From a virus, in the UHGV virus genome UHGV-0126577: DNA of 28,400 nt. One strand, given 5' to 3'. The position numbers and the translations under genes are program-made. The notes under the pieces were generated by a model that worked only from the letters and a program-made list of their open reading frames with translations, ran no database searches and was not told the DNA's origin. Positions 644 to 26,571 of this stretch are shown here, piece by piece (position 1 is the first letter of the stretch; each line of letters opens with the position of its first letter).

Positions 644-763
644 TTCATATCTCCTTAGCCCCACCGTGGGGCAAAACAATTGTCACACCGTGCGTCATTG
701 ATGTCAAGCACACGGTGAGGCATACTTCAATCATTGCAAGTAACTCAATATTTGGTGAAGAAC
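644..763. promoter_or_regulatory. Divergent, overlapping promoter/operator region (Pant-like on minus, Pmnt-like on plus)
   Basis: Minus strand: perfect -35 TTGACA (complement of 702-707), 17-nt spacer, -10 GACAAT (complement of 679-684). Plus strand: -35 TTGATG 698-703, 17-nt spacer, -10 CATACT 721-726. Heptamer CACCGTG at 662-668 and 686-692 and its reverse complement CACGGTG at 711-717. GC-rich inverted repeat GCCCCA-CCG-TGGGGC at 658-672, just upstream of the Arc-like SD. Confidence 0.45.
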
Positions 764-1195
764 ATGAGCAGAGAAGATCCACAACTAAGGATCAGACTTC
801 CCGTTGAAGTAAAAGAAAAAATAGAAATTTCTGCAAAAGCCAATAAGCGATCAATGAACGCTGAAATAGTACAACGTCTTGACACCAGCTTTCTGAAAGA
901 TATTCATGAAGATGACGTAATTTCTGCTTATGAAGCAAAAATTATTGCAAACAATGCACGGCATGAAATATCAAATATTATTTTCAAAAGAACTTTTAAT
1001 GAAATCAATAAAAAAATAACACTTGGACATACAAGTTTTTATATAAACCTTAATGACCTTGAACTGGAATCACTTGCAGATAATGATTACCAGATCATCT
1101 TTGAAAAAACATTTAATAAGCTCAATGAACTAGGTTACATCATCTGTGAAAACTCATGGGATGCAGATGGTTTTGGAATTGAAATACCTGAATAG
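764..1195 (+). CDS. Mnt-like ribbon-helix-helix repressor with an extended AT-rich C-terminal domain (143 aa)
   Basis: The ORF 734..1195 is trimmed to the ATG at 764. N-terminus MSREDPQLRIRLPVEVKEKIEISAKANKRSMNAEIVQRLDTSF matches the Arc/Mnt RHH pattern (P22 Mnt has RMPMEVREKL...GRSMNSELLQIV). The C-terminal ~95 aa are encoded by markedly AT-rich DNA. Confidence 0.6.
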   Translation: MSREDPQLRIRLPVEVKEKIEISAKANKRSMNAEIVQRLDTSFLKDIHEDDVISAYEAKIIANNARHEISNIIFKRTFNEINKKITLGHTSFYINLNDLELESLADNDYQIIFEKTFNKLNELGYIICENSWDADGFGIEIPE

Positions 1196-1285
1196 GAAGA
1201 ACAAAAGGCGTGTACATATTACACGTCTTTAATACAATTGAAAAACGCCACATTACTGATGTATGTTACAACAAGGAGCGATATT

Positions 1286-1849
1286 TTGAAAACCATATCT
1301 ATATTAAAGGTTGCATTAGGCGTCGCTATTATTTTGACTCTCTCAATATTGTTTTATTTTTACCACAAAAAAACTGCTATTGCTCTTGATGGTCACGCGG
1401 CAAACTCATTTTTCTCAGAGTACATAGTGCCGCTATCAGGAAGCGGTATAACAAATAAATATACTGACTATGACATCAAATATGGAATTGATGATGGGGA
1501 GACTATTGCATTACATGTAATCATTAAAAACCTAATGACAGTAAATAAAAATACAGACTTCAACGATAAAAATACAATACATCACAACAACAGCAAAACA
1601 TTAATTTCTTATAGTAGCAACATCTATACGGATAAATACCTAAAATACATCTCAGAAGATACAATAAAAGCAACCAGCGAAAAGTTAAAAAACATATATT
1701 GTGCATCCGGCAGTTTTCACAAATTATCGCCGCAAGAGCGTTTATTCTACGAAGCAAGAAAACAACGTAAGTCAATAATATTACATTATTATGCTGATTC
1801 AGGGGAGTCACTCATATTTAATATTGGGGTTTCCCCTGAATCATGCTAA
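1286..1849 (+). CDS. Membrane-anchored orphan protein (cargo/moron; candidate superinfection-exclusion-type function)
   Basis: Track ORF is 1238..1849. The in-frame TTG at 1286 is preceded by AAGGAG (1273-1278, 7-nt spacer) and gives an N-terminus KTISILKVALGVAIILTLSILFYFY typical of a signal-anchor. The ATG at 1238 lies within a candidate -35 (TTGAAA 1238-1243), so the start is uncertain. Very AT-rich compared with neighbours. Occupies the position of sieA in P22. Confidence 0.5.
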   Translation: MKTISILKVALGVAIILTLSILFYFYHKKTAIALDGHAANSFFSEYIVPLSGSGITNKYTDYDIKYGIDDGETIALHVIIKNLMTVNKNTDFNDKNTIHHNNSKTLISYSSNIYTDKYLKYISEDTIKATSEKLKNIYCASGSFHKLSPQERLFYEARKQRKSIILHYYADSGESLIFNIGVSPESC

Positions 1850-16550: not shown

Positions 16551-16587
16551 TTGACATTTAACGCGTTAATTATTACCTTTCAGGTAA
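16551..16587 (+). promoter_or_regulatory. Promoter-like -35 TTGACA with operator TTACCTTTCAGGTAA
   Basis: Perfect TTGACA at 16551-16556. The block TAATTATTACCTT is shared with the PL-like promoter near 26379. Palindrome TTACC-N5-GGTAA at 16573-16587. Orientation is uncertain: it could serve the plus-strand tRNA cassette and/or the minus-strand structural operon. Confidence 0.35.
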
Positions 16588-16909: not shown

Positions 16910-16986
16910 GTGGCATTAGCTCAGTCGGACAGAGCAACCGCCTTCTAAGCGGTTGGTCGCAGGTTCGAATCCTGCATGCCACGCCA
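16910..16986 (+). tRNA. tRNA-Arg (anticodon UCU)
   Basis: Cloverleaf folded by hand: acceptor GTGGCAT/ATGCCAC (7 bp), D-stem GCTC/GAGC, anticodon stem ACCGC/GCGGT with loop CTTCTAA (anticodon TCT at 16944-16946), T-stem GCAGG/CCTGC with loop TTCGAAT, discriminator G and an encoded CCA. Confidence 0.85.
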
Positions 16987-17184
16987 GAATCACGCCTAAG
17001 GACCGTGATGCCAGAAGTTCCAGGTGCTTGGCGGTGATGGTTTCCCTTGAAGGACTATCACCGCCCTTTTTACAGCAGGACGCCATTGCGATGACTTCAT
17101 GCTGTAAACCAGTACAGCCACGGAAGGCATAACTCATTGCTTCCAGTTCGCCCGGTTCGCCGGGCATTTTTTTAAGGTGAGATC

Positions 17185-17607
17185 ATGAAAACAGCCGACA
17201 TGCTAGCTAAATATCTAAATGAATGGCCGTGCAAATATGTACGCATTGTTCAGGGTGATGATTCAATTTTTTATGGTGTTTTTGCAGGAAATGAAATGCT
17301 TTGTGAAGCAATTCCAGGTGAGCGACTTGCCGGGTTAACGCTTAGCGATGACCATGGAATAGGAGTTACTTGCCATGACTGGATTTCAGCGCAGAAAACT
17401 GAAATGGAAAAAGGCAATGTGTTTGATATTTCTCGCGCTGTATACGCCAAAGAAAAAAGTGATGATGATTACATGCGCGAAAACTTATACAACATGAAGT
17501 TACAATGCCTGGCTGAAGTGCTTAGTAAAAGATCTTTACTTGATGTGGTTGGTGCTGAGCAGGACGCCAAGGCAATCAACGCCGCATTCGATAAAATAAC
17601 CTTCTAA
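17185..17607 (+). CDS. Orphan protein linked to the tRNA (140 aa), function unknown
   Basis: Strong SD AAGGTGAG 5 nt upstream of the ATG. Opposite strand to the flanking structural and terminase genes. Followed by a strong terminator. Moderately AT-rich. Confidence 0.65.
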   Translation: MKTADMLAKYLNEWPCKYVRIVQGDDSIFYGVFAGNEMLCEAIPGERLAGLTLSDDHGIGVTCHDWISAQKTEMEKGNVFDISRAVYAKEKSDDDYMRENLYNMKLQCLAEVLSKRSLLDVVGAEQDAKAINAAFDKITF

Positions 17608-25240: not shown

Positions 25241-25251
25241 GAATAGATATG

Positions 25252-25273
25252 AAAAGACCGCCGGGTGGCGGTC
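25252..25273 (-). terminator. tR1-like terminator hairpin downstream of the cro-like gene
   Basis: GACCGCC-gggt-GGCGGTC stem with a T-run on the minus strand, 23 nt after the cro-like stop. Confidence 0.45.
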
Positions 25274-25295
25274 TACAGAGGGTTGTAGCTGGATA

Positions 25296-25526
25296 TCATG
25301 AGTAGAAGAAGTATGCCAGTTCTGCTTTTGAGCGCAGCCATTGTCTTGTTTTACAGGCTTTAAAAAGCCCATTCATCAATACTTTACCTGGCATTTTTCG
25401 CTTACCTGTTAAGTGAGTCTGGATATAGTGACTCGTCGTTCCGGCTTCCTGTGCGAAGGCTTCACGCTCATCCGGAGTAAGTGCAAGCCAGTGCTTTTTG
25501 AAATCGAAATGTCCGTTATCGCTCAT
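25296..25526 (-). CDS. Cro-like HTH regulator (76 aa)
   Basis: First gene of the minus-strand early operon, divergent from the CI-like gene. Helix-turn-helix-like segment REAFAQEAGTTSHYIQTHLTGKRK. Confidence 0.55.
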   Translation of the reverse strand: MSDNGHFDFKKHWLALTPDEREAFAQEAGTTSHYIQTHLTGKRKMPGKVLMNGLFKACKTRQWLRSKAELAYFFYS

Positions 25527-25562
25527 AGCTATTGCCTGATATTTATTTCAGATAATAAATAT

Positions 25563-25625
25563 TCACCCATAAGGTAACAAAAATCAAGAATAGTTACCTA
25601 TGAGGTGCATTTACCTGTTGGGTAA
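25563..25625. promoter_or_regulatory. OR-like tripartite operator with divergent promoters
   Basis: Three palindromes: TCACCCATAAGGTAA 25563-25577, TTACCTATGAGGTGC 25594-25608, TTACCTGTTGGGTAA 25611-25625. Minus-strand promoter candidate: -35 TTGTTA, 17-nt spacer, -10 TATTAT, with the first operator in the spacer. Confidence 0.5.
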
Positions 25626-25680
25626 TATTGCTTTAAATTGAATCATCTACTGATTCATATATGAGGCGATTTTCCAGAAA

Positions 25681-26265
25681 ATGAAAAGTATCCAGGACGT
25701 CCGCAGGCAAAATCTCAACGACTTGATCGACCGTGAATTCAATGGTGTTCAGACGCGGATGGCTGAAAAACTTGGAACTCAGGCAAATCTGGTAAACCGC
25801 TGGGCTCTTGGCAAGAAGGTTATCGGCGACCAGGTTGCACGAAAAATTGAAGCTGCCGCCAATAAACCCCGTAACTGGCTTGATATCGATCGCTCGCTTT
25901 CTCAGGAAGGTTTTCAGCCTGTCGGCCCAAGCGACATTGGCCAGCTGGCGGCTCACAACCTGGAACGCTGGATGAGCGAAAGCCGCGACCTTTCAACACA
26001 GGGAAAACTTCACCGCGCATCCGGCGTAGCCCAGGTGACAATCAGCCGCCTATTAAACAATGAGGTCAGCGTTTCCATTTCCACCCTGGAGAATGTTGCA
26101 TCCGCATTCGGGCGTCACGGCTATGAATTACTGATTCACCCGCACGACCCTGCGACCATCAACTATGATCGCTCGCGCTACGCATTGTTACCCGAAACCG
26201 AGAAAGCAAAGATCGAAAGTTACATTGAATTTGTCATCAACCAGAACGAAAAAAACAAACAATAA
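25681..26265 (+). CDS. CI-like repressor with two HTH domains and no S24 peptidase domain (194 aa)
   Basis: XRE-type HTH at about aa 20-70 (...VQTRMAEKLGTQANLVNRWALGKKVIGDQVARKIEAAANKPRNWL...) and a second HTH-like segment at about aa 110-160. No Ser-Lys autocleavage domain by size or sequence. Divergent from the cro-like gene. Confidence 0.65.
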   Translation: MKSIQDVRRQNLNDLIDREFNGVQTRMAEKLGTQANLVNRWALGKKVIGDQVARKIEAAANKPRNWLDIDRSLSQEGFQPVGPSDIGQLAAHNLERWMSESRDLSTQGKLHRASGVAQVTISRLLNNEVSVSISTLENVASAFGRHGYELLIHPHDPATINYDRSRYALLPETEKAKIESYIEFVINQNEKNKQ

Positions 26266-26285
26266 AACCATATTTTTCAGTAAGT

Positions 26286-26309
26286 AAGCCGCCTTATGGC
26301 GGCTTTTTT
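26286..26309 (+). terminator. Rho-independent terminator after the CI-like gene
   Basis: AAGCCGCC-ttat-GGCGGCTT hairpin followed by TTTTTT. Confidence 0.7.
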
Positions 26310-26322
26310 ATTGCCTATTCGA

Positions 26323-26413
26323 TTACCTAACGGGTAATTTTTTTAACTCATATCTATTGACATCAAACCATATAAGCATAATTATTACCTTAACGGTAAC
26401 AGACCGAGGTAAC
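26323..26413 (+). promoter_or_regulatory. PL-like promoter with OL-like operators
   Basis: Operators TTACCTAACGGGTAA 26323-26337 and TTACCTTAACGGTAA 26385-26399, plus a half-site GAGGTAA at 26406-26412. Perfect -35 TTGACA at 26357-26362, 17-nt spacer, -10 AATTAT at 26380-26385. Confidence 0.5.
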
Positions 26414-26418
26414 AAGTT

Positions 26419-26571
26419 ATGCAGTGGAAAATCATCAACGGTTGGTACTGCGTTACTGCATGCGGATTCATGAGCTGGAAGTTCCGCACCTTACAGGAAG
26501 GCATTAAGTGGGCTTTCGTCAGCAAAGAAGCTCGCGATGTGGCCAACGATAACGAGATATGGGAGGGCTGA
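26419..26571 (+). CDS. Small protein (50 aa), first gene of the PL-like operon
   Basis: ATG at 26419 with GAGGT 6 nt upstream. Not in the ORF track (under 60 aa). Weak N-terminal resemblance to lambda CIII (MQYAIAGW versus MQWKIINGW), which is speculative. Confidence 0.35.
   Translation: MQWKIINGWYCVTACGFMSWKFRTLQEGIKWAFVSKEARDVANDNEIWEG

What the first reader, a model, noticed from the sequence alone, without database searches (positions are those of the whole stretch)
25563..25625. Tripartite OR-like operator with asymmetric spacing
Sites at 25594 and 25611 are separated by only 2 bp, while the site at 25563 is 16 bp away and has an imperfect left arm (TCACC). This arrangement suggests differential affinity and cooperativity, as for OR1-OR3. 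The CI-like gene has a weak, distant SD (GAGG 14 nt upstream), so its translation signal is atypical.
Basis: partly seen in the sequence, partly recalled or inferred. Interest (0 to 1): 0.4.

Follow-up and report, generated by a model that had tools for sequence, protein, structure and literature searches.

The report
Three-site repressor operator of a phiV10-like prophage
The three palindromes are real and form the main control region between the repressor gene and the first lytic gene of a common E. coli prophage of the phiV10/epsilon15 type, but the repressor belongs to the already described SPC32H family rather than the lambda CI family, and the same binding motif guards at least five other places in the phage genome.

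Summary
Observation confirmed. Sites A (25563-77, TCACCcataaGGTAA), B (25594-608, TTACCtatgaGGTGC) and C (25611-25, TTACCtgttgGGTAA) lie between a divergent repressor gene and a Cro-like gene. The gaps are 16 bp and 2 bp.

- **Not chance:** perfect TTACC-N5-GGTAA occurs 7 times in the window against 0.02 expected.
- **Origin:** the window is a phiV10-type Uetakevirus prophage. This immunity region is present in 540 of 5,426 complete E. coli genomes.
- **Conservation:** the layout A, 15-16 bp, B, 2 bp, C is kept in eight immunity groups whose repressors are only 42-78% identical to this one.
- **Repressor:** it is a full-length homologue of Salmonella phage SPC32H Rep (PDB 5D50). That protein has no autocleavage domain, binds DNA as a tetramer and is inactivated by a LexA-controlled antirepressor. 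It is not a lambda-type CI.
- **Promoters:** site A lies inside the predicted lytic promoter. Sites B and C lie upstream, at or next to the unmapped repressor promoter.
- **Wider set:** the three sites are one cluster of an 11-site set in this window. The epsilon15 RefSeq record already annotates seven such sites as repressor-binding, though none in its own equivalent region.
- **Strength order differs from lambda:** the site nearest the repressor gene is the best match, and the site in the lytic promoter is always imperfect.

Verdict: a real and ordinary feature, and a new member of a known kind.

The parts
25563..25577 (.). Operator site A (TCACCcataaGGTAA), 1 mismatch. It lies in the spacer and -35 of the predicted lytic promoter P_R.
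   Evidence: Weight-matrix score 16.0 bits, rank 9 of 28,377. One arm deviates from TTACC/GGTAA in all 8 groups: TCACC/GGTGA in six, GGTGT in BUCT711, GGTTC in Serratia.
25594..25608 (.). Operator site B (TTACCtatgaGGTGC), 2 mismatches in the right arm.
   Evidence: Score 9.0 bits, rank 11. The arms are invariant and only the central 5 bp vary in 80 loci. The degenerate GGTKC arm is kept in Tyrion, Serratia, E. coli P0070 and Raoultella relatives. B is perfect in epsilon15, SPC32H and BUCT711.
25611..25625 (.). Operator site C (TTACCtgttgGGTAA), perfect core, nearest the repressor gene.
   Evidence: Score 21.7 bits. Perfect in all 8 groups and always 17 bp centre-to-centre from B.
25552..25580 (-). 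Predicted lytic promoter P_R: -35 TTGTTA (25580-25575), 17-bp spacer, -10 TATTAT (25557-25552). An alternative -35, TTGATT (25587-25582), is conserved in most groups.
   Evidence: Scan tool. The epsilon15 equivalent is TTGATT/16/AATAAT.
25296..25526 (-). Cro-like 76-aa HTH protein (phiV10 gp41), first gene of the rightward operon.
   Evidence: phrog_35 'transcriptional repressor', E 5.6e-13. The recognition helix GTTSHYIQ(T/V)H is near-invariant across groups; only Serratia differs more. It is 27% identical to the Rep DNA-binding domain over 41 aa.
25681..26265 (+). Repressor Rep (194 aa, phiV10 gp40), SPC32H-Rep family.
   Evidence: PDB 5D50, E 4e-42, over the full length. No S24 peptidase domain. 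100% identical to the phiV10 and ZX5 repressors.
25611..25639 (+). Candidate repressor promoter: -35 TTACCT (the left arm of C), 17 bp, -10 TAAATT. Read by eye only.
   Evidence: A TAAAT(T/A)-like element 16-17 bp after TTACCY is present in all groups. It does not pass the scan tool.
25663..25666 (+). GAGG, 14 nt upstream of the repressor ATG; the only Shine-Dalgarno-like element.
   Evidence: No such element 5-10 nt from the ATG in any of the five groups aligned.
25639..25657 (.). Unique perfect palindrome TGAATCA-N5-TGATTCA between site C and the repressor ATG. Function unknown.
   Evidence: a single perfect copy. An inverted repeat at the same position but with different sequence occurs in relatives. 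The RNA fold is not significant, z = -1.8.
26323..26399 (+). Leftward early promoter region (OL/P_L): sites 26323-37 and 26385-99, 62 bp apart, flank the promoter TTGACA/17/AATTAT (26357-85).
25226..25240 (.). 1-mismatch site just after the terminator (25274-25255, minus strand) that follows the Cro-like gene.
   Evidence: 16.6 bits. An equivalent 1-mismatch site occurs in Tyrion, BUCT711 and Raoultella.
23219..23295 (-). Pair of perfect sites 62 bp apart, between the replication P gene and the DUF1064 operon. The proximal site covers the Shine-Dalgarno sequence of the DUF1064 gene.
   Evidence: The same 62-bp pair occurs in epsilon15, SPC32H, Tyrion, BUCT711 and Raoultella.
19719..19751 (-). 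Pair of sites 18 bp apart, between a terminator (19788-19771) and the small terminase start codon (19716).
   Evidence: The same pair occurs in epsilon15 (12 and 30) and Tyrion (67 and 85).
16573..16587 (.). Perfect site upstream of the portal operon. It overlaps the -10 position of a plus-strand TTGACA promoter (16551) that faces tRNA-Arg.
   Evidence: Equivalent sites occur in all four relatives, and the epsilon15 record annotates its own as repressor-binding.

Best explanation
The three palindromes are the rightward operator (OR) of a phiV10-type Uetakevirus prophage. They are binding sites (consensus A-TTACC-W5-GGTAA-T) for the phage repressor Rep, a homologue of Salmonella phage SPC32H Rep.

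Shown here:
- The sites exist and are far beyond chance.
- Their arms are constrained while their centres vary.
- Number, order and spacing are conserved across eight immunity groups.
- Site A lies inside the predicted promoter of the Cro-like gene and replication operon.
- Rep is a full-length SPC32H-Rep homologue with a nearly invariant recognition helix.

Inferred:
- Rep tetramers, each with two pairs of DNA-binding domains, anchor on the consensus site C.
- They fill the weaker sites B and A cooperatively. A and B are 31 bp apart, about 3 helical turns, so they face the same side of the DNA. B and C are 17 bp apart and are out of phase.
- Rep at A blocks RNA polymerase at P_R.
- Rep at B and C regulates the repressor's own promoter, whose position is not established.
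- Induction is not by repressor cleavage. A LexA-controlled antirepressor, encoded outside this window, binds the Rep C-terminal domain and takes the tetramer apart. That frees this operator and the other clusters (P_L, the post-replication operon, terS, the portal/tRNA region) together.
- The Cro-like protein then presumably shuts off repressor synthesis. Its DNA target is unknown.
For: - **Sequence and statistics:**
- **Identity of the element:** 97-99% DNA identity to phiV10, ZX5, EC.W1-9 and TL-2011b.
- **Rep homology:** PDB 5D50 and 5D4Z; no S24 domain.
- **Rep properties from the literature:** Rep binds palindromic sites as a tetramer, using DNA-binding-domain pairs drawn from different dimers, and Ant breaks the tetramer (PMC9638917). 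Domain order is DNA-binding domain, dimerisation domain, tetramerisation domain (PMC9986798). The ZX5 repressor, 100% identical to this one, and its antirepressor affect the lysis-lysogeny balance experimentally (PMC9782041).
- **Prior annotation:** the epsilon15 RefSeq record marks seven ATTACC-N5-GGTAAT sites as 'protein_bind: repressor'.
- **Conserved sites:** the core motif and site positions are shared by five genomes.
- **Conserved architecture:** OR layout is the same in eight groups; B-C is 17 bp in 8 of 8 and A-B is 30-31 bp.
- **Constraint on the arms:** in 80 loci, variation within sites A and B falls only in the central 5 bp; 0 of 30 arm positions vary.
- **Promoters:** P_R and P_L were called by the scan tool with sites overlapping them.
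- **Recognition helix:** the Rep helix N-L-V/I-N/S-R-W is nearly invariant.
- **Induction system:** phiV10 has an Ant homologue, 88% identical to SPC32H Ant, with a LexA box (CTGTGTATTTATACAG) upstream.
Against: - No binding data for this phage or for these three sites were available. The primary SPC32H papers (Kim & Ryu 2013; Kim et al. 2016) and the epsilon15 genome paper (Kropinski et al. 2007) are not in the held library, so I could not check which operator DNA was tested.
- The epsilon15 'repressor' features are predictions, and they omit its own OR region.
- The repressor promoter is not established. The only conserved candidate puts its -35 inside the strongest site, which would make the repressor shut itself off unless another promoter is used.
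- The antirepressor gene is not in this window.
- Promoter calls are consensus matches only. In the 1.3-kb scan that called P_R and P_L, 3 promoter-like matches were found against 2.7 expected from shuffles.
Confidence: 0.8

Rival explanations
1. A lambda-type bistable switch. The repressor and the Cro-like gp41 compete for the same three sites with opposite affinity orders, as CI and Cro do at OR1-OR3. Pairwise cooperativity between adjacent repressor dimers sets the switch.
For: - The divergent repressor and Cro-like gene layout has three sites between them.
- gp41 is an HTH regulator distantly similar to the Rep DNA-binding domain.
- Its recognition helix is as conserved as the operator core.
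- The missing Shine-Dalgarno sequence on the repressor gene recalls leaderless lambda cI.
Against: - Rep has no S24 cleavage domain. It is a tetramer that is removed by an antirepressor (PMC9638917).
- The best site is nearest the repressor gene and the site in the lytic promoter is the conserved weak one, the reverse of lambda.
- The same motif occurs at 8 further sites in the window, including before terS.
- The recognition helices of gp41 (TSHYIQTH) and Rep (ANLVNRW) differ.
- There is no evidence that gp41 binds these sites.
Confidence: 0.25
2. Only two of the sites work. B is a decayed relic, and the region is in effect a bipartite operator: A for P_R and C for the repressor promoter.
For: B has two arm mismatches and scores only 9.0 bits, against 16.0 for A and 21.7 for C.
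Against: - B's position, 2 bp from C, is fixed in 8 of 8 groups, and B is a perfect site in epsilon15, SPC32H and BUCT711.
- In 80 loci both arms of B, including GGTGC, never vary, while 4 of its 5 central positions do.
- B still ranks 11th of 28,377 positions.
- An equivalent strong-plus-weak adjacent pair stands before terS.
Confidence: 0.1
3. The palindromes are bound by some other factor, such as gp41, a late regulator or a host protein, and mark transcription-unit boundaries rather than repressor operators.
For: - Four clusters sit 10-14 nt after an intrinsic terminator.
- The pair before terS has no recognisable sigma-70 promoter next to it.
- No direct Rep-DNA data could be read.
Against: - Sites overlap the -10 or spacer of the two tool-called early promoters P_R and P_L.
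- The literature describes Rep binding palindromic sites (PMC9638917).
- The epsilon15 curators assigned the motif to the repressor.
- The Rep recognition helix is conserved in step with the motif.
Confidence: 0.07

Closest known systems
Rep/Ant lysis-lysogeny switch of Salmonella phage SPC32H (Kim & Ryu 2013; Kim et al. 2016; PDB 5D50, 5D4Z), with the repressor-binding sites annotated in the Salmonella phage epsilon15 RefSeq record NC_004775.2
   Same: - The repressor is homologous over its full length (E 4e-42).
- The operator core TTACC-N5-GGTAA is the same.
- The OR layout is the same: three sites, with B-C 17 bp and A-B 30-31 bp apart.
- Clusters lie at the same genome positions.
- phiV10 carries an Ant homologue with a LexA box.
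   Different: - Rep is only 42% identical to the SPC32H and epsilon15 repressors.
- B is degenerate here but perfect in epsilon15 and SPC32H.
- The weak arm of A is on the opposite side.
- OL has two sites here against three in epsilon15.
- The epsilon15 record does not annotate its own three OR sites.
Lambda OR (OR1-OR2-OR3) with CI and Cro
   Same: Three partly palindromic sites lie between a divergent repressor gene and a Cro-like gene. One site lies in the lytic promoter. The matches to consensus are unequal. The repressor gene lacks a normal Shine-Dalgarno sequence.
   Different: - Spacing is uneven (17 and 31 bp, against 23-24 bp in lambda).
- The strongest site is nearest the repressor gene.
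- The repressor is not cleaved; it is a tetramer inactivated by an antirepressor.
- The same motif guards at least five other regions, including late genes.
- Cro binding to these sites is untested.
Repressors with many operators spread over the genome (phiC31 c repressor with conserved inverted repeats; mycobacteriophage L5 gp71 'stoperators'). This comparison is from my own knowledge.
   Same: One repressor motif is repeated at many intergenic positions, so several transcription units are silenced directly.
   Different: The proteins are unrelated. The L5 sites are asymmetric and depend on orientation. Here the sites are palindromic and form pairs at fixed spacings of 17-18 bp or 62 bp.

Membership tests
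SPC32H/epsilon15-type Rep-operator system (Uetakevirus immunity region) | Repressor homologous over its full length to SPC32H Rep (DNA-binding domain, middle dimerisation domain, C-terminal tetramerisation and Ant-binding domain) | tested here: met
   phmmer against PDB: 5D50_A, E 4e-42, residues 1-190 aligned to 2-197; 5D4Z, E 4e-20. Domain order is described in PMC9986798.
SPC32H/epsilon15-type Rep-operator system (Uetakevirus immunity region) | No LexA/CI-type S24 autocleavage domain | tested here: met
   The Pfam scan finds only HTH families.
SPC32H/epsilon15-type Rep-operator system (Uetakevirus immunity region) | Operator palindrome ATTACC-N5-GGTAAT repeated at conserved intergenic positions | tested here: met
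   7 perfect and 4 near-perfect sites in the window. The positions match those in epsilon15, SPC32H, Tyrion and BUCT711 and the epsilon15 'repressor' features.
SPC32H/epsilon15-type Rep-operator system (Uetakevirus immunity region) | Small antirepressor Ant under LexA control | tested here: inconclusive
   No Ant homologue lies inside the window. phiV10, whose repressor is identical and whose immunity-region DNA is 97.6% identical, has one (88% identical to SPC32H Ant) with CTGTGTATTTATACAG upstream.
SPC32H/epsilon15-type Rep-operator system (Uetakevirus immunity region) | Rep binds the operator as a tetramer | not testable with these tools
   Known only for SPC32H Rep, through secondary descriptions (PMC9638917).
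Lambda-type OR (CI/Cro tripartite operator) | Three repressor sites between divergent repressor and cro genes | tested here: met
Lambda-type OR (CI/Cro tripartite operator) | Repressor with an S24 C-terminal domain, inactivated by RecA-stimulated self-cleavage | tested here: not met
Lambda-type OR (CI/Cro tripartite operator) | Sites overlap both the lytic promoter and the repressor-maintenance promoter | tested here: inconclusive
   P_R overlaps site A. No repressor promoter passes the scan. A conserved candidate, TTACCT/17/TAAATT, overlaps C, read by eye.
Lambda-type OR (CI/Cro tripartite operator) | The highest-affinity repressor site is the one in the lytic promoter (OR1) | tested here: not met
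   By match to consensus the order is C > A > B. The site within the lytic promoter is imperfect in all 8 groups. This uses sequence as a proxy, not measured affinity.
Lambda-type OR (CI/Cro tripartite operator) | Cro binds the same three sites with the opposite preference | not testable with these tools
   gp41 is an HTH protein, but its target is unknown.

The most novel reading that the evidence does not exclude
Across the whole genus, with repressors down to 42% identity and hosts in Escherichia, Salmonella, Klebsiella, Enterobacter, Serratia and Raoultella, the operator half-site, the Rep recognition helix and the OR geometry (17 and 30-31 bp) stay fixed. The C-terminal, antirepressor-binding part of Rep diverges. 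On this reading, immunity specificity in these phages would be set by the pairing of antirepressor with repressor, not by the pairing of repressor with operator as in lambdoid phages. A single Rep tetramer would bridge the in-phase pair A and B, or the 62-bp pairs, so that the conserved weak site in the lytic promoter depends entirely on an intact tetramer. That would make all promoters fire together once Ant splits the tetramer.
Probability: 0.3. Interest if true: 0.5.

Novelty: new member of a known kind. Interest (0 to 1): 0.3.

Why it matters
This immunity region sits in about one in ten complete E. coli genomes (540 of 5,426). The phiV10 record annotates no operators, and the epsilon15 record omits its own rep/cro-side operators. 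An exact map of the three sites, their conserved spacing and the other eight sites in the window gives direct targets for footprinting, for engineering non-inducible or constitutively lytic derivatives, and for testing how a tetrameric repressor removed by an antirepressor uses paired sites. It does not reveal a new kind of regulation.

Tried and rejected
- **Primary literature.** I tried to read Kropinski et al. 2007 (PMC2698709), Kim & Ryu 2013 (PMC3807360) and Kim et al. 2016 (PMC4983836) to learn which operator DNA was tested. None is held. Literature searches for operators of phiV10, epsilon15 or Uetakevirus found no description of them.\n- **Repressor promoter.** I looked for a sigma-70 promoter for the repressor gene in 25600-25680 and none passes the scan. 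Several hand-read candidates (TTGCTT, TTGAAT, TTTAAA as -35) have poor -10 elements or poor spacing. I could not support a leaderless start in this group. In epsilon15 and SPC32H, TTAGGT/17/TACAAT ends 4 nt before the ATG (by eye), but the scan tool did not call it.\n- **The TGAATCA-N5-TGATTCA palindrome (25639-57).** I tested it as a second operator or an RNA hairpin. It is unique in the window. The RNA fold is not significant, z = -1.8. Its sequence changes between relatives while the gp41 recognition helix does not, so gp41 is not an obvious binder. It remains unexplained.\n- **Known RNA families.** Rfam finds nothing meaningful in 25100-26500; all four matches are far below their gathering scores and lie at the terminator.\n- **Covariation between repressor and operator.** I looked for a change of operator sequence in step with the Rep recognition helix in relatives of 52-59% identity. 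Both are essentially invariant, so no covariation test was possible.\n- **The 2-mismatch match at 25402, inside the gp41 gene.** It scores -0.9 bits and was rejected as chance.

Full report
**1. What is in the sequence**

The interval 25527-25680 is the intergenic region between two divergent genes. One is a minus-strand 76-codon ORF (25296-25526). The other is a plus-strand 194-codon ORF (25681-26265).

- A: 25563-25577, TCACC-CATAA-GGTAA
- B: 25594-25608, TTACC-TATGA-GGTGC
- C: 25611-25625, TTACC-TGTTG-GGTAA

The gaps are 16 bp and 2 bp, which gives centre-to-centre distances of 31 and 17 bp.

**2. Chance is excluded**

- Perfect TTACC-N5-GGTAA occurs 7 times in the 28.4-kb window against 0.02 expected from dinucleotide-preserving shuffles.
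- With up to two mismatches there are 26 matches against 8.0 expected.
- Three such sites starting within 48 bp arose in 1 of 1000 Markov simulations.
- I built a weight matrix from 43 distinct perfect-core sites of five related genomes. It gives the extended consensus A-TTACC-WWWWW-GGTAA-T.
- The 11 best scores in the window are the seven perfect sites plus 25226, A, 19719 and B. The next score drops from 9.0 to 6.1 bits.
- By my reading of the ORF map and the phiV10 annotation, all 11 sites are intergenic.

**3. What the window is**

The region is 97-99% identical to Escherichia phages phiV10, EC.W1-9, PAS61, ZX5 and TL-2011b, and 76.5% identical to Enterobacter phage Tyrion. All are Uetakevirus, the epsilon15-like podoviruses.

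The gene order matches phiV10. On the minus strand it runs gp41, gp42, a DnaT-like initiator, a lambda-P-like protein, DUF1064 and so on, then terS, terL and the structural genes. On the plus strand it runs repressor, gp39, gp38, RecE-like, RecT. The immunity region occurs in 540 of 5,426 complete E. coli genomes.

**4. The proteins**

- **Repressor.** The 194-aa protein is 100% identical to the phiV10 and ZX5 repressors.
  - It aligns over its full length with the repressor of Salmonella phage SPC32H (PDB 5D50, E 4e-42; 5D4Z covers the C-terminal half).
  - Pfam finds only HTH families and no S24 peptidase.
- **What the literature says about Rep.**
  - It has an N-terminal DNA-binding domain, a middle dimerisation domain and a C-terminal tetramerisation and Ant-binding domain (PMC9986798). 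The Pfam HTH_3 hit at residues 106-147 falls in the part of the protein downstream of the DNA-binding domain, so it probably corresponds to the dimerisation domain; this is my inference.
  - It binds palindromic sites as a tetramer. Each pair of DNA-binding domains is contributed by different dimers.
  - A tetrameric antirepressor, Ant, splits it into weakly binding dimers (PMC9638917).
  - From my own knowledge of Kim & Ryu 2013, which I could not re-read, ant is controlled by LexA.
- **Antirepressor.** phiV10 carries an Ant homologue 88% identical to SPC32H Ant. A canonical LexA box, CTGTGTATTTATACAG, lies just upstream. The window itself contains no Ant gene.
- **Experimental support.** For ZX5, the repressor and a (Bro-N type) antirepressor were shown to shift the lysis-lysogeny balance, but no operators were defined (PMC9782041).
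- **Cro-like protein.** The 76-aa protein matches phrog_35, 'transcriptional repressor' (E 5.6e-13).
  - It resembles the Rep DNA-binding domain faintly: 27% over 41 aa, pairwise E 0.001.
  - It is Cro-like by position and fold. Its DNA target is unknown.

**5. Comparative evidence**

The epsilon15 RefSeq record already carries seven 'protein_bind: repressor' features. All are ATTACC-N5-GGTAAT. None is in its own rep-gp39 intergenic region.

Scanning five genomes shows the same core in 7-11 perfect copies per sequence scanned, at corresponding places:
- two sites 18 bp apart before terS
- one before the gp3/portal operon
- one between ant and the tailspike gene (outside this window)
- one before the lysis genes
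- a 1-mismatch site near attP/int
- two or three sites 62-63 bp apart at the leftward early promoter
- three at OR
- a 1-mismatch site after the Cro-like gene
- two sites 62 bp apart before the DUF1064/RuvC operon

The OR region has the same architecture in eight immunity groups: window/phiV10, Tyrion, Klebsiella BUCT711, epsilon15, SPC32H, and prophages of Serratia, E. coli and Raoultella whose repressors are 54-59% identical to this one.
- The layout is A, then 15-16 bp, then B, then 2 bp, then C.
- B-C is 17 bp centre-to-centre in 8 of 8 groups, and A-B is 30 or 31 bp.
- C is perfect everywhere.
- A always has one imperfect arm (TCACC/GGTGA in six groups, GGTGT in BUCT711, GGTTC in Serratia). 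The weak arm is on the Cro side in the phiV10, Tyrion, E. coli P0070 and Raoultella groups and on the opposite side in the epsilon15, SPC32H, Klebsiella and Serratia groups.
- B keeps a degenerate GGT(G/T)C arm in the window's clade and is perfect in the epsilon15, SPC32H and Klebsiella groups.

Among 80 metagenomic or prophage loci with an identical repressor, every polymorphism inside A or B falls in the central five bases. None of the 30 arm positions of A and B varies, including B's non-consensus arm.

The Rep recognition helix (N-L-V/I-N/S-R-W) is almost invariant across all homologues examined. This fits the invariant half-site.

**6. How it most likely works**

- **P_R.** The scan tool calls a minus-strand promoter, TTGTTA/17/TATTAT (25580-25552), with A in its spacer and -35.
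  - In epsilon15 the call is TTGATT/16/AATAAT, with A in the spacer and -10.
  - Either way, Rep at A would exclude RNA polymerase from the promoter of the Cro-like gene and replication operon. This step is inferred from geometry.
- **P_L.** The tool calls TTGACA/17/AATTAT (26357-26385). One site lies 19 bp upstream of the -35 and another starts at the last base of the -10.
  - By eye, the promoter before DUF1064 has the same design.
- **Phasing.** The recurring spacings are 17-18 bp, which is out of helical phase, and 31 or 62 bp, which is about 3 and 6 turns and therefore in phase. A tetramer has two pairs of DNA-binding domains.
  - I therefore infer cooperative occupation of paired sites: the weak A, and here B, are held by tetramers anchored on consensus sites.
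  - Which pairs one tetramer bridges cannot be decided with these tools.
- **Induction.** It would follow the SPC32H scheme. LexA cleavage leads to Ant, the tetramer is disassembled, and all clusters are released together.

**7. The repressor's own expression is unresolved**

No plus-strand promoter passes the scan. One element is conserved: TAAAT(T/A) lies 16-17 bp downstream of the TTACCY arm of C in all groups. If that is the promoter, C overlaps its -35 and the repressor would limit its own synthesis.

No group has a Shine-Dalgarno sequence 5-10 nt from the ATG. A short-leader or leaderless transcript is possible but not shown.

**8. Comparison with what is known**

- In function the region resembles lambda OR. 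It is a three-site operator between divergent repressor and cro-like genes, with unequal sites.
- It fails two defining lambda features that I could test. The repressor has no S24 cleavage domain. The strength order is reversed, with the consensus site nearest the repressor gene and the weak site in the lytic promoter.
- It meets the testable features of the SPC32H/epsilon15 Rep system.
- Because one motif guards many transcription units, it also resembles multi-operator repressors such as those of phiC31 or L5. That comparison is from my own knowledge.

**9. Verdict**

This is a real, conserved and functionally important operator cluster. It belongs to an already described repressor family and uses a motif already annotated in a relative. 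What appears un-annotated in the records I saw is the three-site OR itself and its conserved asymmetry. I rate it a new member of a known kind, of modest interest.

Noticed in passing
window 16551-16587 and 16910-16986: A plus-strand TTGACA (16551-56) lies 17 bp before TACCTT, which is inside the perfect Rep site at 16573. It faces a tRNA-Arg(TCT) gene (16910-86, plus strand) and the ORF at 17185-17607. That suggests a Rep-controlled tRNA/gp03 unit running opposite to the structural genes. The 83-codon minus-strand ORF at 16916-17167 (phiV10 gp04) overlaps the tRNA and may not be a real gene.
   Followed up: partly
window 25639-25657: A unique perfect palindrome, TGAATCA-tctac-TGATTCA, lies between site C and the repressor start codon. 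Relatives have an inverted repeat at the same position with a different sequence (TGAAT..ATTCA in Tyrion, AATAA..TTATT in Raoultella). The gp41 recognition helix does not change with it, and the RNA fold is not significant (z = -1.8).
   Followed up: partly
window 26286-26337, 25226-25274, 23281-23314, 19737-19788: In four places an intrinsic terminator is followed 10-14 nt later by a Rep site, and in three of the four then by a promoter-like sequence. The early region looks like a chain of modules made of terminator, operator and promoter, each silenced directly.
   Followed up: partly
window 23219-23233 and 19719-19733: The promoter-proximal Rep sites cover the Shine-Dalgarno sequences of the DUF1064 gene (AGAGGTAAatcATG) and of terS (GGGTGGTTAtgATG). 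No sigma-70 promoter is recognisable between the terminator and terS, so the role of the terS pair (roadblock or activator site) is unclear.
   Followed up: no
L005 (epsilon15 NC_004775.2) 33341-33402: The epsilon15 RefSeq record annotates seven repressor-binding sites but none of the three in its own rep-gp39 intergenic region (33341, 33358, 33388). It also omits perfect sites at 24704 and 35969. These sites lack the flanking A or T of the 17-bp consensus on at least one side.
   Followed up: yes
window 25272-25299 (plus strand): The scan tool calls a plus-strand promoter-like site, TCTACA/16/TATCAT, at the 3' end of the Cro-like gene. It reads antisense through that gene towards the repressor gene. 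Its position recalls lambda P_RE, and it lies 32 bp downstream of the 1-mismatch Rep site at 25226.
   Followed up: no
window 734-1849 (plus strand): Two plus-strand ORFs sit at the left end, where phiV10 has a Bro-N antirepressor gene. One matches Arc-like and partition-ATPase PHROG families as well as phrog_1388, and the other matches phrog_8033. This is apparently a different accessory cassette. No SPC32H-type Ant homologue lies inside the window.
   Followed up: partly
L001 (phiV10) 18214-18283: In the phiV10 intergenic region between the tail fibre gene and ant, a 1-mismatch Rep site (TTACCTTTCAGGTGA) lies 39 bp upstream of a canonical LexA box (CTGTGTATTTATACAG), just before the Ant homologue.
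   Followed up: partly
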